Shown here: piece after piece, positions 4,826 to 11,815 of the stretch | Numbering within the stretch: the stretch's first letter is position 1 | How the letters are laid out: every line of letters begins with the position of its first letter | Assembly: GCA_964457245.1 (NCBI GenBank) | Contig: CAYWET010000003.1 | Location: 77,006 to 141,005 of the forward strand | DNA length: 64,000 nt | Source of the DNA: an uncultured Chryseobacterium sp. | GTDB lineage: Bacteria; Bacteroidota; Bacteroidia; UBA10329 | Direction: 5' to 3' | Made by a program: the position numbers and the translations under genes | Notes under the pieces: model-generated | Database searches by the model: none | What the model saw: only the letters and a program-made list of their open reading frames with translations | Told to the model about the DNA's origin: nothing

Positions 4826-6994
4826 TCAGTTTTCCTCATTCGCCCAGCCGACCACGGCCAAGTCTATCTGCCGCTTTTCGAGAGAGACAGCCAGCACCTT
4901 CACCACTACGGCATCGCCAAGGGTGTAAGAGTTTCCGGTGGTGGAACCAACTACGCTCATGGTGTCTTCATCAAAATCGTAGAAGTCGTCTGGAAGGTCG
5001 CGCAAGCGGATCATGCCTTCGCATTTGTTCTCCTTGATCTCTACAAAGATTCCCCATTCGGTTACGCCAGAAATAAGCCCTTCGAACTCATCTCCAATAT
5101 GGTCTTTGAGGAACTTGGCCTGCATGTATTTGGTACTTGCCCGCTCGGCCTCGGTGGCCTTCTTCTCCATATCGGAACTATGCAGACAGAGGTCTTCGTA
5201 ATCTTTATTGTAGGCCGATTTTCCGCCATCGAGGTAACGCTGTAGTAGCCGATGCACCATTACATCAGGGTACCTTCTGATAGGTGATGTGAAGTGCGTG
5301 TAATAATCGAACCCGAGACCGAAATGACCGATGTTGTCGGTGCTGTATTCGGCTTTAGCCATGCAACGGATTGCCAGTGTGCTGAGCATATTCTCCTCGC
5401 CTTTTCCTTTGATATCGGCTAGGAGTTTATTCAACGATTCGGTGAGGATCCTACGTGGCCCCAGCTGCACTTTATAACCTAGCTGACCAGCAATTTCCAC
5501 CAGCATTTCCAAGCGTTCCTGCTGTGGATCGTCATGAATACGATAGACAAACGTTTTTGGCTGCCCTTGCTTCGGGTTTCCGATAAAAGCGGCCACTTGC
5601 TTGTTGGCAAGCAACATAAATTCCTCAATGAGTTTGTTGCTATCCTTGTATTCCTTCAGGTAAACCTCAATCGGGTTGCCTTCATCATCCAGACGGAACT
5701 TCACTTCTTCCTTCTCGAACGCAATAGCCCCGTTGTCGAAACGCTTTTCGCGAAGTTGCTGTGCAAGGCTGTGCATGGTGAGCACCTCCTCTTTCAGCGG
5801 GCCATCTCCTCCTTCTATGATTTTCTGGGCATCATCGTACGTAAAACGTTGGTCTGAATTGATGATGCAACGCCCGAACCATTCGTTGATGACCTTGGCC
5901 TTGTCGTCCATTTCGAACACGGCAGAGAACACGAGTTTCTCTTCGTTGGGACGTAACGAACAGACCTTGTTGCTGAGTTTTTCGGGAAGCATGGGAATGA
6001 CCCTATCCACGAGATAGACCGATGTTGCACGGCTAATGGCTTCTTCATCCAACGCGGTGCCGGGTTGCACATAGTGCGAAACATCGGCAATGTGGACCCC
6101 GATCTCCCAGTTTCCGTTTTCGAGTTTTTGGATGGAGAGGGCGTCATCAAAATCCTTGGCATCATCTGGATCGATGGTGAAGGTGGTTATCTGACGGAAG
6201 TCGCGCCTCATGGCAATCTCATCTGCCGATATCACTTCAGGAATTTCGTCCGCTTCCTGCTCTACATCTTCTGGGAAGTACAGCGGGAAATCGAACTCGG
6301 CCAAGATGGAATGCATCTCGGTTTCCATGTCGCCTGGTTCGCCCAGCACGGTAACCACATGGCCAATGGGGTTGTGCGCACGCTCTGGCCAATCCATCAT
6401 TTTTACAATGACCTTGTCGCCATCTTGCGCGCCTTTCAATTCTCCTAACGGGATGAAGAAATCGACCGGCATATTGCGGTTATCGGGCACCATGAAGGCG
6501 ACCTTGCTCTTGCGGTTAATGGTGAGTTTTCCGACAAAGGTTTCGCGCGCACGCTCGAGCACCTCCACCACTTCTCCTTCTATTCTACTGCCTTTATGGT
6601 TGGCGTACACATGCACCTTGACGGTATCGCCCGGCAGTGCTTGACGCACCTTACGCGGTGAGATGCGGATATCTGTATCGAACTCGGCCACGGTGACGTA
6701 CGCGGTGCCGGTACTGGTAATATCAACTTTGCCCACCAGTTTCGGTGCGGGCTTATGCTTGAGTTGGTACTTGCCTCTTTCGACTTCGCGCACCAAGCCA
6801 TCCCCTTTCATTTGGTTGAGGGTTTGCGCCAGTTTGGCTCTTCCGTCTTTATCGGTGATCTCTAGCCGCTTGGCTATCTGTTTATAATTGAGTGCCCTGT
6901 TTGGGCTTTTTCGCATGGTTTCCAGAATGGGTTCTTGGAAAACCGATTGGGAACGGCCTTTCTTCTTACCCTTAGCTTTCTTCTTCTTTTTCAA
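4826..6994 (-). CDS. rnr: Ribonuclease R
   Basis: 722 aa. It has a Lys-rich N-terminus, an RNB core (TIDPDDAKDFDDALS; HFGLGFDYYTHFTSPIRRYPD) and a C-terminal S1 domain (GLISGVTEWGIFVEI). Confidence 0.95.
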   Translation of the reverse strand: MKKKKKAKGKKKGRSQSVFQEPILETMRKSPNRALNYKQIAKRLEITDKDGRAKLAQTLNQMKGDGLVREVERGKYQLKHKPAPKLVGKVDITSTGTAYVTVAEFDTDIRISPRKVRQALPGDTVKVHVYANHKGSRIEGEVVEVLERARETFVGKLTINRKSKVAFMVPDNRNMPVDFFIPLGELKGAQDGDKVIVKMMDWPERAHNPIGHVVTVLGEPGDMETEMHSILAEFDFPLYFPEDVEQEADEIPEVISADEIAMRRDFRQITTFTIDPDDAKDFDDALSIQKLENGNWEIGVHIADVSHYVQPGTALDEEAISRATSVYLVDRVIPMLPEKLSNKVCSLRPNEEKLVFSAVFEMDDKAKVINEWFGRCIINSDQRFTYDDAQKIIEGGDGPLKEEVLTMHSLAQQLREKRFDNGAIAFEKEEVKFRLDDEGNPIEVYLKEYKDSNKLIEEFMLLANKQVAAFIGNPKQGQPKTFVYRIHDDPQQERLEMLVEIAGQLGYKVQLGPRRILTESLNKLLADIKGKGEENMLSTLAIRCMAKAEYSTDNIGHFGLGFDYYTHFTSPIRRYPDVMVHRLLQRYLDGGKSAYNKDYEDLCLHSSDMEKKATEAERASTKYMQAKFLKDHIGDEFEGLISGVTEWGIFVEIKENKCEGMIRLRDLPDDFYDFDEDTMSVVGSTTGNSYTLGDAVVVKVLAVSLEKRQIDLAVVGWANEEN

Positions 6995-7185
6995 GTAGTT
7001 GTATTCAAATTATGGATGCAAAGGTAGGGATATTGGAAGGGGCGGAGTTAACGGGTGATGAAGTTATGAAGTAGGTATCAGTGAGTAACTAGCAAGAAAA
7101 TCAGAATACGTCCGTAAATAGGTTACTAACTTGCATCCAAGTTTTAAACCGCAAAGGGACTAAACCAAATCTAATTCAACGATTG

Positions 7186-8409
7186 ATGGAGATTTCGCTA
7201 AAAGAAGAAAGGAAACAATCAGTTGCACATCAGCTTACTCCCAAAAAATCGATACCCCATATCATTAAGTACATGGGGTCAAAACGAAGCCTAATTGATT
7301 TTCTAGCAGAGTCTTTCAACGAAATTTATGATGGAGAGCCAATCTGTGACCTGTTTGCTGGAACCGCAGTTGTTGGGGGAGCGTTTGGCGGTGGAGCCCA
7401 GATCTATTCCAATGACATACAAGAGTATTCAGCTGTACTAGCAAAAACATACCTTGGAGATTATGACTGGTCTATCTATGAAAACGTTCTTGAGAGCGTC
7501 ATAGAAATAGCTCAATCTCACGTTAGTCAAGTTCGCAGACTATACCCTGATCTCGTATTCGATTACACGGTAGATTTAGACTTCAATTCCTTTAACGCGT
7601 TAGAACAAGAACAGCAAGAACTCATCTATTTTGATTTCAATGACCTAGAGCATCACCTATTCATTAAGAATTACTCTGGAACATATTGGTCATTTGACCA
7701 GTGTCTTTGGATTGATGCTATTCGAACCGCTGCTAATAGCTACTCTGATACTCCCGTTTACAATGTAATTCTATCAAGCCTCATGTTTGCCATGGCGTAC
7801 AATGCCCAAAGTACTGGGCATTATGCCCAGTATAGAGATGCATATGATGAGGTTTCAATGAAGGATATAATTACCCATCGTAACAAGGAAATTGTCCCGT
7901 ATTTCAGACGAAAGATGGAAGAGCTGATGGCGTTTACGGAATCAAATAAATTGAACCATGTTTATTCATCCATAGACTACCGGGAATGTTTAGACCAAAT
8001 TCCTGAAGGAACTCTGGTCTATGCAGATCCTCCTTACGTATTCGTTCACTATTCAAGATTCTATCATGCTTTGGAAACTTTAGTATTGTATGACTACCCT
8101 GAGGTTAAGTACAAAGGGAGATATCGAACCGACCGTCACCAATCACCTTTTTGCAAAAGAACCGAGGTAGTGGGAGCTTTTGAAGATTTGTTTGAAAAGG
8201 TGGCTTCCAAAAATTCGAAACTTGTTTTAAGCTATTGTAATACGGGAATGATTACTTTGAATAACATTCTGGACATTGCTGCTGACAAATTGAGTGATGA
8301 GTATCGAGTATATACCAAAGAGATGGATTACCTGCACAGCACAATGGGTCGATTGAAAGATAAATCAAGAGATGTGAAAGAATATTTGGTTATTGCAGTA
8401 CCTGAGTAA
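7186..8409 (+). CDS. D12-class (Dam-like, alpha-group) N6-adenine DNA methyltransferase
   Basis: Motifs found: KYMGSKRSL (motif X-like), DLFAGTAVVGG (FxGxG, SAM binding), NDIQEY, and the catalytic ADPPY (DPPY codons at 8026-8037). About 200 aa between motif I and DPPY is a putative target-recognition region. ATG 7186 follows the track's TTG at 7183. Confidence 0.8.
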   Translation: MEISLKEERKQSVAHQLTPKKSIPHIIKYMGSKRSLIDFLAESFNEIYDGEPICDLFAGTAVVGGAFGGGAQIYSNDIQEYSAVLAKTYLGDYDWSIYENVLESVIEIAQSHVSQVRRLYPDLVFDYTVDLDFNSFNALEQEQQELIYFDFNDLEHHLFIKNYSGTYWSFDQCLWIDAIRTAANSYSDTPVYNVILSSLMFAMAYNAQSTGHYAQYRDAYDEVSMKDIITHRNKEIVPYFRRKMEELMAFTESNKLNHVYSSIDYRECLDQIPEGTLVYADPPYVFVHYSRFYHALETLVLYDYPEVKYKGRYRTDRHQSPFCKRTEVVGAFEDLFEKVASKNSKLVLSYCNTGMITLNNILDIAADKLSDEYRVYTKEMDYLHSTMGRLKDKSRDVKEYLVIAVPE

Positions 8410-8411
8410 GC

Positions 8412-10229
8412 ATGTCTGCCAAAAACGATTTTTCAAAAGTTAGGGGTTCTTGGACCAAGTTTGATTCTGTAAAAGTTTTAGCTGTGGTGTACAGCATAGA
8501 GACCCTGGAGAGGTTCAAAGCAAAACAGATTCAAATTGATGAACCAATACTTCGTTCATTTTTAGGCATTAAGTCGCTTAAAGATCCATTACCAAAATAT
8601 TGGTTGGAGATTCAAGACTACCCTCAGGAAAAAAGGCTTTTCGCACTTTTTGCCAGCTTATTCCGAAATGGCAAGGTGATACGGCTGTTTGCGGAAAAAT
8701 ATTCCAAAGGAGAAATGAAGGGTGTAATGAAGCTTGGCTCACCCCATTCAAAGCAAGAGACCAACCTCAGGAGTGCCTTAATAGAATCAGGTGCTGCAGC
8801 GTTGATTTATAGAAAGTCTGATTCGGTACCTTATGACTTCTCCCCCATATTTCAAAATCCGAAAGTGGGACGATTGTTTAAAGAGGTCTTGAAAGAAAGA
8901 GTATCGCGCATCGCGAAAAACCCTACTGAAGGTGAGTTTTATGCGGTTTGTGAGGAAAATCAATTCCACAAGGCACTTAGTCTGACAAAAACTCAGTTCC
9001 GAAACTGGCTTGAGGGTGAAACTGATATAAATTACAGTGAAACTTCAGCAAATTATCTCGATGAGATTCGAATTTCTGGGTTCTACTCGATTGGCGAAAT
9101 TATTCTCTCAGGGTTGAAGGATACCAAAGAGATATACCTACTTGGGGAAAATGGAGATGGCAAATCCTTAGTCTTGATGGCAATTTATCTTGCTTTCAAC
9201 CGACATTTCGTTTCGGAACAAACCGATCAAGAAAGTACTGGGAAAGCGGTTGATATTATAAGGGCGAACAAAGGTGTCTTCTTAGAAGCTGTCGACAGTA
9301 ATGGCAAAACCTATGGTGCTAAGAATACTGGATATCTGAGCAACCTTTTTGGATATGGAACTCACAGAGGCCGCTATTCAACCGATAATGCTGAGGAGTA
9401 TGGTTTCATGTCTCTGTTCAGTAGCGAAGAGGAACTTACAAATCCTAACTCATGGCTACGAAACCAACGGCATCTAGAATTGGAAAAAGCACTGGGCCAA
9501 AATAACATGGTTGGTGAAAACAAATCACTGCCAAAATCTTTCCCGACTGAACCCTTGTTAGCCATGTTTCATGATTTGCTGGAAAGGAATATTGAAATAA
9601 CATTTAAAGGTCCAGACGTCATTTTTAATGAAAAGGGTGCTCAACTAACTTTTGATCAATTATCTGAGGGCTACAAGAGTATATTAATCTTCGTTTCCGA
9701 CCTTCTGAAACGGCTTCAGGAAAATCAGCCAACCGTTAATGATGTTAAGAAGTTTAAGGGAATCGTAATTGTAGATGAAATTGATCTTCATCTGCACCCT
9801 AAATGGCAGAAAAACATCGTTAAAAAACTTAGGAAGCTGTTGCCGGAAGTCCAGTTTATTCTTTCCACCCACAGCCCAACTATGATTCAGGGCGCATCAA
9901 ATGACGCTGTAATTTATCGCATTTACCGAAACACTGTGGACGGAAAAACGAAAGCTTCCGAACCCTATTACCGAAATGAGCTAAACTACATGATGGTAAA
10001 CACACTACTTACCTCCTCTTTGTTTGGTTTGGACAATTCCCGATTGGATAATGAGAATCAAAATTCAGATACAAGCGAAACCTATTTGCTATACCGAATC
10101 AACGAGATTATTTCTGAAAAACTGGAGCAGGAGAAAAGGGATGGCAAGGAGTTTATCAGTGACGATACGATAGATGAATTAATCAAGAAGGCCATTGACC
10201 AAGAACTTGGAAAAAATGATCAAAATTGA
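8412..10229 (+). CDS. ABC-type (AAA_21/PtuA-like) ATPase with an unassigned ~240-aa N-terminal domain
   Basis: Walker A GENGDGKS (9144-9167), ABC signature LSEGY (9660-9674), Walker B IVIVDEIDLHLHP (from 9762) and H-loop LSTHSP. The start ATG is 2 nt after the methyltransferase stop (TAA gc ATG). Confidence 0.75.
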   Translation: MSAKNDFSKVRGSWTKFDSVKVLAVVYSIETLERFKAKQIQIDEPILRSFLGIKSLKDPLPKYWLEIQDYPQEKRLFALFASLFRNGKVIRLFAEKYSKGEMKGVMKLGSPHSKQETNLRSALIESGAAALIYRKSDSVPYDFSPIFQNPKVGRLFKEVLKERVSRIAKNPTEGEFYAVCEENQFHKALSLTKTQFRNWLEGETDINYSETSANYLDEIRISGFYSIGEIILSGLKDTKEIYLLGENGDGKSLVLMAIYLAFNRHFVSEQTDQESTGKAVDIIRANKGVFLEAVDSNGKTYGAKNTGYLSNLFGYGTHRGRYSTDNAEEYGFMSLFSSEEELTNPNSWLRNQRHLELEKALGQNNMVGENKSLPKSFPTEPLLAMFHDLLERNIEITFKGPDVIFNEKGAQLTFDQLSEGYKSILIFVSDLLKRLQENQPTVNDVKKFKGIVIVDEIDLHLHPKWQKNIVKKLRKLLPEVQFILSTHSPTMIQGASNDAVIYRIYRNTVDGKTKASEPYYRNELNYMMVNTLLTSSLFGLDNSRLDNENQNSDTSETYLLYRINEIISEKLEQEKRDGKEFISDDTIDELIKKAIDQELGKNDQN

Positions 10230-11031
10230 TAAGGATTTAAATGGTGTTCCTCCCTCTCTTCAACTTCCAGAACGTCAGTACTTCTCTGGAACAATTCCGA
10301 GACCGCCCAAAACAACTCATCAAAGACGAAGAGAGTTAATTGACCAAGGTAAATACATTGATACCGCCCAATACAACTCCCGTTACAAACAGTCTGACAC
10401 CAAAGAGGCCTTAAAGCTTCTGTACCATAATAAATGTGCTTACTGTGAACAGGTGGTGGAACAAACACATGTTGAACACTATCGACCAAAGAGCACATAC
10501 TATTGGCTCGCTTACTCATGGGACAATCTTCTATTATCGTGCCCTACTTGTAATAAGCATAAGGATGTTAATTTTCAACTGGACGGCCCAGAGGCAAGTT
10601 TGTTGAATGCAAAGGAAGCGTTGTCGAATATTCATGCCTTGAGGACAAGCTATGATGACACCGAGCTACCTCGGTTAGTAAACCCTGAGGTTACAGATGT
10701 AAGTGGACAAATCGTTTTTAATCAATCAGGCAATGTAGATTCTGCTGACAGCAGACTCGCCTACACAATTGAGGTATGCAAGATAGATAGAGCTACTCTC
10801 AATGATCAACGAAAAAAACTACTTGAAGTGTTTGCCCGCGATGTAAGGTCAGCTCTACTTGAAGCTTCGGACACCAACAAACAAGAACTTCTAGTTGGTT
10901 CAATAATCACAAAATTTATTCGAGATTCTTGTGACAACGAAATGGCCTTTCTTGCGTTTAGACGTTTCGCTATAGCAAGCAACTGGCTTAAAGAAATAAT
11001 CATTGAAGTCAAACGGATGCCATCCAATTAA
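10216..11031 (+). CDS. HNH endonuclease (TIGR02646 / PtuB-like)
   Basis: CAYCEQVVEQTHVEHYRPKSTYYWLAYSWDNLLLSCPTCNKHK (10435-10563) gives CxxC...HxEH...N...CxxC zinc-finger HNH architecture. ATG 10216 overlaps the end of the ATPase gene by 14 nt. The track's TTG at 10195 is an alternative start. Confidence 0.8.
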   Translation: MIKIDKDLNGVPPSLQLPERQYFSGTIPRPPKTTHQRRRELIDQGKYIDTAQYNSRYKQSDTKEALKLLYHNKCAYCEQVVEQTHVEHYRPKSTYYWLAYSWDNLLLSCPTCNKHKDVNFQLDGPEASLLNAKEALSNIHALRTSYDDTELPRLVNPEVTDVSGQIVFNQSGNVDSADSRLAYTIEVCKIDRATLNDQRKKLLEVFARDVRSALLEASDTNKQELLVGSIITKFIRDSCDNEMAFLAFRRFAIASNWLKEIIIEVKRMPSN

Positions 11032-11049
11032 GTTGTGACTAACTAAGCC

Positions 11050-11415
11050 TCACCCACCCCTCTCAATCCGCCTAAGCACCTCCTCAATCTCCTGAGGAGA
11101 TTTACCCACAAGCAATTTCGCCACCTCTGGCACGGTCGGCTTTTTCAGTACACGCAGGTGGTGCTTTGGGTCCCCCTTCCAAGTAAAAAGGTCATTCGGC
11201 AGGCAGTTGAACGTTTCGCACAATCGTGTCATCATACTCAGGCGTATCTCCTTGGGCTCGCCATTCAAGAGTCCACGGGCCTCACTGGCCGTATAGCCAT
11301 GGTTCATTAGAAAAGAACGCCCAGAACGGATGCCGTTCAGCGCTAACAAGCGGTGTATGTCTACATGTATCGTATCATTTGAATTCATGCTTATCACAAC
11401 GTTCTTTAGGTTCAA
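11050..11415 (-). CDS. XRE-family helix-turn-helix transcriptional regulator
   Basis: ...LLALNGIRSGRSFLMNHGYTASEARGLLNGEPKEIRLSMMTRLCETFNCLPNDLFTW is a typical Cro/C1-type HTH with the Bacteroidota xxFNCxPNDLF tail. The true start may be the internal MNSNDT. Confidence 0.7.
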   Translation of the reverse strand: MNLKNVVISMNSNDTIHVDIHRLLALNGIRSGRSFLMNHGYTASEARGLLNGEPKEIRLSMMTRLCETFNCLPNDLFTWKGDPKHHLRVLKKPTVPEVAKLLVGKSPQEIEEVLRRIERGG

Positions 11416-11485
11416 ATTAGTATCAGCTAATGCATGTTTTTTGTTAAAAACAAGGGCAAATTGGTTGTTCCTTCACTAAAAAGTG

Positions 11486-11674
11486 ACGTTCAACCGCAAA
11501 CATTGGCTTTGTAACCGCCAACAAAAGTTTTGCAATAGCAGATCAGGAGTTTGCAACAGCAAACCCCAACTTTTCCTTCACCAACATCAGTTTTGCAACC
11601 GCAACATGGCAACTTTCCTCCGCCAATTCCGCGTTTGCAATAGCAAACCACCCACGTTCAACAACAGATCGGTG
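11486..11674. repeat. About nine tandem 21-bp units carrying the palindrome GTTTGC-N4-GCAAAC (putative operator array)
   Basis: 16-mers start at 11486, 11507, 11528, 11549, 11591 and 11633, giving spacings of 21, 21, 21, 42 and 42. Perfect copies are GTTTGCAACAGCAAAC (11549-11564) and GTTTGCAATAGCAAAC (11633-11648). Degenerate units fill the in-register positions 11570, 11612 and 11654. Confidence 0.8.
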
Positions 11675-11815
11675 GTTATTCAGAACACAGAATATCACAG
11701 CCATAACAATGCCGTGGGTTTCCAACCCGTTTTAGATGCAAATGGCGCAATGCTTCACTTTAGATAAAGCAGCCCGCCCAAAAGCAAAAAGACAAACACT
11801 TAAAACCTGGAAATC

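What the first reader, a model, noticed from the sequence alone, without database searches (positions are those of the whole stretch)
7186..11031. Dam-like methyltransferase coupled to a Septu-like ABC-ATPase/HNH pair: candidate methylation-gated defence operon
Seen in sequence: three co-directional genes are packed for translational coupling. The methyltransferase stop TAA (8407-8409) is 2 nt from the ATPase ATG (8412). The HNH ATG (10216) lies 14 nt inside the ATPase gene, whose stop is at 10227-10229. Gene 1 has D12/Dam motifs (KYMGSKR, DLFAGTAVVGG, NDIQ, ADPPY at 8026-8037). Gene 2 has Walker A GENGDGKS, the LSEGY signature, Walker B IVIVDEID and LSTHSP. Gene 3 has the CxxC/HxEH/CxxC HNH core at 10435-10563.

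Established: Septu defence consists of PtuA (ATPase) plus PtuB (a TIGR02646-type HNH) and, as far as I know, carries no methyltransferase. ATP-dependent restriction systems of the CglI/NgoAVII type show that a methyltransferase, a nuclease subunit and a separate NTPase subunit can act together.

Inference: this may be a hybrid in which m6A marks self DNA and the ATPase-HNH complex attacks unmarked DNA. In effect it would be a restriction-modification system built on a Septu chassis. Alternatively the methyltransferase acts as an epigenetic antidote that makes the cassette addictive.
Basis: partly seen in the sequence, partly recalled or inferred. Interest (0 to 1): 0.85.

Follow-up and report, generated by a model that had tools for sequence, protein, structure and literature searches.

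The report
Methylase-gated Septu-type restriction operon
A DNA adenine methylase is locked into one operon with a Septu-type ATPase and HNH nuclease through a previously undescribed 200-residue domain on the ATPase, so an immune effector normally seen without a methylase has apparently been rewired into a restriction-modification system.

Summary
Gene 1 is a D12 m6A methyltransferase; genes 2 and 3 are PtuA and PtuB of Septu. It folds confidently (pLDDT 95.5) but matches nothing in PDB, BFVD, Pfam, NCBIfam, PADLOC or PHROGs.

This domain links the trio. Of 80 genomes carrying a relative of the methylase, 50 have the domain next to it, 25 have a BglII-family restriction endonuclease, and only one has both. 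Of 80 metagenomic loci chosen by the domain alone, 76 of 77 evaluable have the methylase directly upstream.

The domain is always N-terminal. It is fused to:
- PtuA, with PtuB following;
- a McrB-like P-loop ATPase, with a McrC-like nuclease following;
- DndB/DpdB-like proteins;
- a PD-(D/E)xK nuclease directly.

My best reading is that it reads the methylase's unmethylated target site and directs PtuA-PtuB onto unmarked DNA. No paper found describes this. Nothing has been tested experimentally, and the recognition sequence is unknown. I rate it a new variant of a known kind, interest 0.7.

The parts
7186..8409 (+). D12-class (alpha-type) N6-adenine DNA methyltransferase, 407 aa. Motifs: KYMGSKR (aa 28-34), DLFAGT (55-60), NDIQ (76-79), DPPY (281-284). 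The putative target-recognition region is aa ~141-240.
   Evidence: PF02086 2e-18 and PADLOC MTase_II 3e-34. There are 2145 homologues at E<=1e-5. Region 141-240 is about as conserved as the catalytic core across all partner classes.
8412..9011 (+). N-terminal ~200-aa domain of PtuA. It is a mainly helical fold with three short strands and no known relatives; I propose it reads the methylase's unmethylated target site. Conserved residues: S13, T15, K16, P61, W64, G104, K114, T117, N118, W199.
   Evidence: AlphaFold2 pLDDT 95.5. No PDB or BFVD fold match and no Pfam, NCBIfam, PADLOC or PHROGs hit. Only 67 clusters among 1.84 billion representatives, N-terminal in every credible hit. Next to the methylase in 50/80 and 76/77 loci. 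pI 9.8 against 5.0 for the rest of PtuA.
9012..10229 (+). PtuA ABC-type ATPase body. Walker A GENGDGKS (aa 245-252), signature LSEGY (417-421), Walker B IVIVDEID (451-458), H-loop LSTHSP (484-489).
   Evidence: PADLOC PtuA 1.6e-45 over aa 184-579 and PF13304/PF13175. Best solved relatives are retron Ec78 PtuA 9vkz (5e-22) and Septu PtuA 8ee4 (3e-16). Walker A, Walker B and signature are present in 80/80 class A sequences and the H-loop in 79/80.
10216..11031 (+). PtuB HNH endonuclease, 271 aa. It overlaps the end of ptuA by 14 nt. Zinc-binding CxxC at aa 74-77 and 109-112; catalytic H88, N104, N113.
   Evidence: PADLOC PtuB 7e-47, PF01844 5e-8, TIGR02646 49.7 bits against a cutoff of 52.15. 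Solved PtuB chains match at about 4e-6. The core residues are invariant in 76/76 sequences.

Best explanation
The three genes form one restriction-modification unit.

- The methylase puts m6A on a specific sequence in host DNA.
- The N-terminal 200-residue domain of PtuA binds the same sequence when it is unmethylated.
- That binding places or activates the PtuA ABC-ATPase oligomer with its bound PtuB HNH nuclease on incoming unmarked DNA, which PtuB cuts.
- Co-transcription with the methylase first, and translational coupling, keep the nuclease from outrunning the methylase.

Shown here:
- the gene identities;
- intact catalytic motifs;
- near-obligate linkage of the methylase and the N-domain;
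- substitution of the N-domain proteins for a classical endonuclease;
- reuse of the N-domain on four effector types.

Inferred:
- that the N-domain binds DNA rather than the methylase;
- that it discriminates methylation state;
- that the substrate cut is DNA.
For: 1. Forward linkage. Of 80 genomes with a methylase relative, 50 carry the N-domain protein beside it. Of these, 23 are PtuA+PtuB as in the window.

2. Reverse linkage. Of 80 metagenomic loci picked by the N-domain alone, 76 have the methylase directly upstream on the same strand. Three are cut at the contig end and one lacks it.

3. Substitution. Another 25 genomes pair the same methylase family with a BglII-family Type II endonuclease (PF09195, 1e-37 to 1e-47 for four typical ~200-aa members; 2e-19 for a divergent 291-aa one). 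The split is 49 N-domain only, 24 BglII-like only, 1 both, 6 neither.

4. Modularity. The N-domain is N-terminal in every credible hit and is fused to four effector types:
- PtuA;
- a McrB-like P-loop ATPase followed by a DUF2357+PDDEXK_7 protein, the McrC architecture;
- DndB/DpdB-like proteins;
- a PD-(D/E)xK nuclease directly, shown by the motif E...D...ExK and by Foldseek hits to AF1548, Card1, Can2, NucS and PaqCI.
In McrB-family proteins the N-terminus is where the specificity domain sits (PMC11090510).

5. Residues. The N-domain has no conserved acidic catalytic set. Its invariant residues are S, T, K, N, W, P and G, and it is basic.

6. Shared specificity. The methylase's putative recognition region is conserved across all partner classes. 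In L039 one methylase is flanked by both a BglII-like endonuclease and an N-domain module.

7. Weak co-divergence. Methylase and N-domain identities correlate only weakly (Spearman 0.33), and partner classes are interleaved on the methylase tree. This fits two parts that meet at a DNA site better than a co-adapted protein interface.

8. Active enzymes. The PtuA and PtuB catalytic motifs are conserved in 79-80 of 80 and 76/76 sequences.
Against: - Nothing here is experimental: no methylation motif, DNA binding or cleavage is shown.
- The N-domain has no recognisable DNA-binding fold.
- One locus, L092, has the N-domain PtuA plus PtuB with no methylase within 6 kb. Such a system is therefore not necessarily lethal alone, unless a methylase lies elsewhere in that genome.
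- Some PtuA-PtuB pairs are reported to cut tRNA-Tyr rather than DNA (PMC12673091; abstract of PMC13096335).
- Canonical Septu is reported to be gated by ATP level, not by methylation (PMC12673091).
- A search for an avoided palindrome in host DNA was inconclusive.
Confidence: 0.55

Rival explanations
1. Type III-like docking model. The N-domain does not read DNA. It binds the methylase, which supplies sequence recognition, and so recruits PtuA-PtuB (or the other effectors) to sites the methylase finds unmethylated, as Res binds Mod in Type III systems.
For: The N-domain occurs almost only next to this one methylase family. It has no recognisable DNA-binding fold. The methylase gene always comes first and is translationally coupled in classes A and B.
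Against: The same methylase family works with a free-standing BglII-type endonuclease that needs no docking. Partner classes are interleaved on the methylase tree, and methylase and N-domain identities correlate only weakly, at 0.33. Class C proteins are just the N-domain plus a nuclease, the usual layout of a two-domain endonuclease with its own reader. In class D the N-domain sits where McrB homologues carry DNA-specificity domains.
Confidence: 0.22
2. Methylation-gated abortive infection. The N-domain senses unmethylated DNA as in the main model, but activated PtuA-PtuB cuts host tRNA or other RNA and arrests the cell, rather than cutting the invading DNA.
For: Retron-Eco7 PtuA-PtuB degrades tRNA-Tyr (PMC12673091). 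A 2026 paper reports that Septu cleaves the variable loop of tRNA-Tyr (abstract of PMC13096335). The class B relatives L017 and L035 carry a weak, sub-threshold HEPN-like match at the C-terminus, a domain typical of RNases.
Against: The alternative partners of the same methylase are DNA endonucleases, namely BglII-family, PD-(D/E)xK and McrC-like. Canonical Septu PtuA-PtuB is reported to degrade DNA. Nothing in the sequence points to tRNA recognition.
Confidence: 0.13
3. Independent neighbours. A solitary or Type II methylase and an ordinary, self-sufficient Septu system simply sit side by side in a defence island.
For: Defence genes cluster, and Septu is known to co-localise with other systems such as Hma. 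One locus, L092, has this PtuA-PtuB without the methylase.
Against: The methylase is present in 76 of 77 evaluable loci, on the same strand, with 0-5 nt gaps across several phyla. The N-domain is found essentially nowhere else. There is near-perfect mutual exclusion with a BglII-type endonuclease. No PLSDB plasmid PtuA homologue carries the N-domain.
Confidence: 0.03

Closest known systems
Septu type I (PtuA ABC-ATPase + PtuB HNH; Doron et al. 2018; solved structures 8ee4/8eea)
   Same: The ATPase and the HNH nuclease are PtuA and PtuB by PADLOC models (1.6e-45 and 7e-47). They match solved PtuA and PtuB chains, have the same gene order, and have intact catalytic motifs.
   Different: Canonical Septu has two genes, no methylase, and is reported to be gated by ATP level. 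Here PtuA carries an extra 200-aa N-terminal domain, and a methylase is an almost obligatory third gene.
Retron type I-A / 'Septu type II' (reverse transcriptase + ncRNA + PtuA + PtuB; Retron-Eco7, Eco4)
   Same: It is another case where the PtuA-PtuB effector pair is put under the control of an extra upstream sensor or antidote module. NCBIfam's retron PtuA and PtuB models give the best partial hits.
   Different: The upstream gene here is a DNA methylase, not a reverse transcriptase. Scores are far below the NCBIfam equivalog cutoffs (128 against 500 bits; 65 against 150 bits).
LlaJI-type and other methylase-associated McrBC-like restriction systems
   Same: The logic is the same. An NTPase with an N-terminal DNA-specificity domain plus a separate nuclease subunit is paired with a methylase, and restricts unmethylated DNA (PMC1459862; PMC11090510). 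The class D relatives found here (L026, L029, L032, L039) are of this type and carry the same N-domain.
   Different: In the window the motor is an ABC ATPase (PtuA) and the nuclease is an HNH (PtuB). In LlaJI-type systems they are an AAA+ GTPase and a PD-(D/E)xK McrC.
CglI / NgoAVII ATP-dependent restriction systems
   Same: They are three-gene systems of methylase, nuclease subunit and NTPase subunit that act together (PMC4267653).
   Different: Here the putative reader sits on an ABC ATPase. There is no sequence relationship.
Classical Type II restriction-modification pairs with a BglII-family endonuclease
   Same: They use the same methylase family (43-57% identity to the window's), including a conserved putative recognition region.
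   Different: The restriction partner is a ~200-aa PD-(D/E)xK endonuclease instead of the N-domain-PtuA plus PtuB pair.
Hma (helicase, m5C methylase, ATPase), in which Septu is sometimes embedded
   Same: It is a methylase found near Septu genes.
   Different: Hma's methylase is an m5C enzyme and comes with a helicase. Only 0.7% of Septu systems are embedded in it, and Septu works independently of it. The window has no helicase, and its methylase is a D12 m6A enzyme.

Membership tests
Septu (PtuA/PtuB) | ABC-type ATPase PtuA with Walker A, Walker B and signature motifs | tested here: met
   PADLOC PtuA 1.6e-45. The motifs are at aa 245-252, 417-421 and 451-458 and are conserved in 80/80 relatives.
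Septu (PtuA/PtuB) | TIGR02646-type HNH nuclease PtuB encoded immediately downstream of ptuA | tested here: met
   PADLOC PtuB 7e-47, with a 14-nt overlap with ptuA. TIGR02646 scores 49.7 bits, just under its 52.15 cutoff. Solved PtuB chains match at about 4e-6.
Septu (PtuA/PtuB) | Self-sufficient two-gene system with no modification component | tested here: not met
   A methylase is directly upstream in 76 of 77 evaluable loci, and PtuA has an extra N-terminal domain absent from the PADLOC PtuA model match.
Septu (PtuA/PtuB) | Protects against phage | not testable with these tools
   This needs plaque assays.
Restriction-modification system (Type II-like, NTPase-assisted) | DNA methyltransferase with intact catalytic motifs | tested here: met
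   PF02086 2e-18. DPPY and FxGxG-type motifs are present and lie in the most conserved blocks of 79 homologues.
Restriction-modification system (Type II-like, NTPase-assisted) | Nuclease component genetically inseparable from the methylase | tested here: met
   50/80 loci in the forward test and 76/77 in the reverse test, with tight junctions.
Restriction-modification system (Type II-like, NTPase-assisted) | The same methylase family elsewhere serves a bona fide restriction endonuclease | tested here: met
   A BglII-family endonuclease is present in 25 loci, almost mutually exclusive with the N-domain proteins.
Restriction-modification system (Type II-like, NTPase-assisted) | Cleaves unmethylated DNA at or near a defined sequence, and methylation protects | not testable with these tools
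   This needs a methylome and cleavage assays. The palindrome-avoidance scan was inconclusive.
McrBC-like / LlaJI-type restriction | AAA+ GTPase (McrB) plus DUF2357-PD-(D/E)xK nuclease (McrC) | tested here: not met
   The window's motor is an ABC ATPase and its nuclease is an HNH. Only the class D relatives in Bacillota have a P-loop AAA protein followed by a DUF2357+PDDEXK_7 protein.
Retron type I-A (Septu type II) | Reverse transcriptase and ncRNA upstream of ptuA | tested here: not met
   The gene upstream of ptuA is the D12 methylase, and the next gene upstream is an RNase R-like ORF on the other strand. No search for a retron ncRNA was run.
Hma-embedded Septu | Flanking helicase, m5C methylase and ATPase genes | tested here: not met
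   There is no helicase in the locus, and the methylase is the D12 m6A class.

The most novel reading that the evidence does not exclude
The 200-residue N-domain is a new DNA-reading fold that acts as a portable sensor of an unmethylated site. By fusion it has converted at least four unrelated effector machines into methylation-gated restriction systems that all share one methylase family. The four are Septu PtuA-PtuB, a McrBC-like motor-nuclease pair, DndB/DpdB-like proteins, and a plain PD-(D/E)xK nuclease. If so, effectors usually regarded as infection-sensing or abortive can be switched to self/non-self discrimination by adding one domain and one methylase.
Probability: 0.5. Interest if true: 0.8.

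Novelty: new variant of a known kind. Interest (0 to 1): 0.7.

Why it matters
How Septu is triggered and aimed is only partly understood. Reports differ on whether PtuA-PtuB cuts DNA or tRNA, and on whether it is gated by ATP level or by retron msDNA.

This family offers a natural version in which the trigger may be simple and testable: an unmethylated site read by a defined domain. It also offers:
- a confidently folded domain with no structural relatives as a candidate new class of sequence- and methylation-sensitive DNA reader;
- a clear example of the same reader being swapped among four effector types on one methylase backbone, which bears on how defence systems evolve by module exchange.

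Practically, genome annotation pipelines would call these loci 'Septu plus an orphan methylase' and miss that they are one system.

Tried and rejected
1. A word-index search with the N-domain alone found only 7 short fragments. The exhaustive search replaced it.

2. A metagenome scan with an alignment spanning all N-domain classes failed for lack of a conserved stretch. It worked with classes A and B only, so the reverse test does not sample classes C and D.

It was rerun with database proteins only, giving a shallow 8-sequence alignment and pLDDT 82.

4. Foldseek hits for the class C nuclease domain have weak E-values (0.013 or worse), although local probabilities reach 0.99. The nuclease call rests mainly on the sequence motif.

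5. A profile of the methylase found no solved relative by sequence. A single BglII-like sequence found none either.

6. I tried to guess the recognition sequence from palindrome avoidance over 1.8 Mb of host DNA. GC-rich palindromes are generally depleted, GGATCC and CGATCG rank only 4th and 5th, and nothing stands out.

7. I considered the HTH gene at 11050-11415 as a controller protein. It has no counterpart in any of the 80 genome loci, so I rejected it.

8. I considered simple defence-island adjacency and rejected it on the linkage statistics.

9. No terminator or promoter signal above background was found in 6800-11800.


Full report
**Observation.** The three co-directional ORFs exist exactly as described.
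- The methylase runs 7186-8409 and its stop is 2 nt from the PtuA start at 8412.
- PtuA ends at 10229.
- The PtuB start at 10216 lies 14 nt inside PtuA, and PtuB ends at 11031.

- Gene 1 is a D12-class N6-adenine methylase (PF02086 2e-18; PADLOC MTase_II 3e-34).
- Gene 2 is PtuA (PADLOC 1.6e-45; AAA_21 and AAA_15).
- Gene 3 is PtuB (PADLOC 7e-47; HNH 5e-8; TIGR02646 49.7 bits, just under its cutoff of 52.15).

The closest solved chains are retron and Septu PtuA and PtuB. The operon is 39-40% G+C against 46-50% in its flanks, which fits horizontal acquisition.

The PtuA model matches only residues 184-579. Residues 1-200 are a separate domain.
- AlphaFold2, using 47 homologues, folds it with mean pLDDT 95.5: mainly helical with three short strands.
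- Foldseek finds no neighbour in the PDB (best E 0.64, TM below 0.3) or in BFVD.
- Pfam, NCBIfam, PADLOC and PHROGs have no model for it.
- An exhaustive HMMER search of 1.84 billion representative proteins finds only 67 clusters at E <= 0.001. The domain is N-terminal in every credible hit; the weakest (P0194, E 7e-4) matches only a 32-residue internal stretch. The proteins are about 375, 590, 730 or 980 residues long.

**Is the methylase co-conserved?** I fetched 80 genome loci encoding relatives of the methylase (43-73% identity) from Bacteroidota, Bacillota, Proteobacteria, Planctomycetota and others. A profile of the N-domain finds it next to the methylase in 50 of them. These proteins fall into four classes by their C-terminal parts.
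- Class A (23 loci, plus the window): a PtuA ATPase followed by PtuB.
- Class B (15 loci): a DndB/DpdB-like region. Most are followed by an unknown ~450-aa protein. Two are ~975-aa versions (L017, L035) with a weak, sub-threshold HEPN-like C-terminal match; L035 also has a weak, sub-threshold Hjc-like nuclease match.
- Class C (5 loci): the N-domain plus ~180 residues carrying a PD-(D/E)xK signature (VGTE, IDLVV, FYEIKT, QLLEYA).
- Class D (4 Bacillota loci): a P-loop AAA protein with weak AAA_5 hits, followed in three of them (the fourth is cut at the contig edge) by a DUF2357+PDDEXK_7 protein. That is the McrC architecture (PMC11090510).

The class C model (pLDDT 82) repeatedly hits PD-(D/E)xK nuclease domains such as AF1548, Card1, Can2, NucS and PaqCI. 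Local probabilities reach 0.99, but the E-values are weak.

**The remaining loci.** In 25 loci the methylase is paired with a ~200-aa BglII-family Type II endonuclease (PF09195; 1e-37 to 1e-47 for four typical members). The two kinds of partner almost exclude each other: 49 loci have the N-domain only, 24 have the BglII-like enzyme only, 1 has both and 6 have neither. Of those six, one contig is 1.6 kb, one methylase is truncated and one locus has an IS66 insertion. In the one locus with both (L039), a single methylase is flanked by a class D module and a BglII-like endonuclease.

**Reverse test.** I selected 80 metagenomic loci by the N-domain alone, using patterns from classes A and B.
- 76 have the methylase directly upstream on the same strand.
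- Three are cut at the contig end.
- One, L092, has PtuA and PtuB flanked by housekeeping genes with no methylase within 6 kb.
- 62 are class A, 17 are class B and one is truncated.
- 54 are complete trios, with methylase-to-PtuA gaps typically 0-5 nt and PtuA-PtuB overlaps mostly 4-17 nt.

Two IMG/VR viral contigs also carry the full trio. No PLSDB plasmid PtuA homologue includes the N-domain.

**Are the enzymes active?**
- PtuA's Walker A, Walker B and signature motifs are present in 80/80 class A sequences, and the H-loop in 79/80.
- PtuB's two CxxC pairs, H88, N104 and N113 are invariant in 76/76.
- The methylase's catalytic blocks are its most conserved parts. The region between motifs I-III and IV, where alpha-class enzymes carry their target-recognition domain, is about as conserved across all partner classes: 27 of 100 positions are at least 95% invariant.

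This last point suggests one shared recognition sequence for the whole family.

**What the N-domain does.** Its invariant residues are S13, T15, P61, W64, G104, K114, T117, N118 and W199 (K16 is nearly so). There is no conserved acidic set, so it is unlikely to be a metal-dependent nuclease. It is basic, with pI 9.8 in the window against 5.0 for the rest of PtuA. Three observations point to a non-catalytic reader of the methylase's unmethylated site.
- In class C it precedes a nuclease domain.
- In class D it occupies the position where McrB homologues carry their specificity domains.
- As a group, the N-domain proteins stand in for a sequence-specific endonuclease.

The main rival is that it docks onto the methylase, as Res docks onto Mod in Type III systems. 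Against that, partner classes are interleaved on the methylase tree; the window's methylase is sister to a class B locus. Methylase and N-domain identities also correlate only weakly, at Spearman 0.33.

**Mechanism proposed.** The methylase marks host DNA. The N-domain of PtuA binds unmarked sites on incoming DNA. The PtuA oligomer with bound PtuB then cuts. The gene identities, motif integrity, linkage, substitution and modularity are shown. DNA binding, methylation sensitivity and the nature of the substrate are inferred.

A variant worth keeping open is that recognition of unmethylated DNA triggers tRNA cleavage and growth arrest. Retron-Eco7 PtuA-PtuB, and by one report Septu itself, cut tRNA-Tyr.

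**Comparison with known systems.**
- It is built from Septu parts but fails Septu's defining property of being a self-sufficient two-gene system.
- It is not a type I-A retron, because the upstream gene is a methylase and not a reverse transcriptase.
- It is not Hma-embedded Septu, which has an m5C methylase and a helicase.
- It works like the NTPase-assisted restriction systems LlaJI (PMC1459862) and CglI/NgoAVII (PMC4267653), but uses an ABC ATPase and an HNH nuclease.

Of seven literature searches, the six aimed at Septu/PtuAB or related restriction systems found no description of a methylase-linked PtuA-PtuB or of this N-domain. The library does not cover most subscription journals or REBASE, so prior knowledge cannot be excluded.

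**Verdict.** I rate it a new variant of a known kind: restriction-modification with a Septu effector, linked by a domain with no known relatives. Interest is 0.7. The recognition sequence remains unknown, and a palindrome-avoidance scan was inconclusive.

Noticed in passing
window 11050-11415 (- strand): A Cro/C1-type HTH gene (PF13443, 9e-7) sits right after the operon, convergent with it. It has no counterpart in any of the 80 related genome loci, so it is probably not a controller protein of this system.
   Followed up: partly
window 11468-11650: In the intergenic region between the HTH gene and a 316-aa CarboxypepD_reg-domain gene, two repeat families are spaced 105 nt apart (TTCCTTCAC...GCAACCGCAA and TTTGCAATAGCA). 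They could be operator sites.
   Followed up: no
L039:3071-8888: One methylase is flanked by two restriction modules. Upstream and divergent is an N-domain P-loop ATPase plus a DUF2357-PDDEXK_7 nuclease. Downstream and convergent is a BglII-family endonuclease. This is the only locus of 80 with both.
   Followed up: partly
L092:6001-8588: An N-domain PtuA plus PtuB has no methylase within 6 kb and is flanked by an FMN oxidoreductase, an esterase with a Por secretion tail, and a glycosyltransferase. It is the only evaluable exception among 77 loci.
   Followed up: partly
L023:10888-13063 (likewise L025, L028, L030, L047): In five class A loci, the trio is followed by a pair of ORFs of matching sizes (~507 aa and ~220 aa). 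In L023, the only one scanned, the 507-aa protein is a GHKL ATPase (HATPase_c_3) and the 220-aa protein has no Pfam hit. This could be a second defence module.
   Followed up: no
L024:8839-10605 (- strand): An OLD-family protein (AAA_15 plus a weak, sub-threshold Toprim-like match; PADLOC AriA, Old and GajA hits) lies immediately beside the BglII-like endonuclease of that locus.
   Followed up: no
protein P0110: A 487-aa homologue of the methylase carries fused HTH domains (PF01381, PF13443), as seen in methylases that regulate their own restriction-modification operon.
   Followed up: no
L054:8250-9011 (probably also L075:9088-9738): A second methylase, of the MT-A70 type (PF05063, 3e-27), lies directly downstream of the D12 methylase in L054. 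L075 has a clustered homologue, which I did not scan.
   Followed up: no
L001:10423-11766, L007:10400-11758 and other class B loci: The ~450-aa partner protein of class B is conserved in position but has no significant hit in Pfam or PADLOC. One member was also scanned against PHROGs, with no hit. Its role is unknown.
   Followed up: partly
L161, L162 (IMG/VR contigs): Two contigs classed as viral carry the complete methylase-PtuA-PtuB trio, so the system may travel on prophages.
   Followed up: partly
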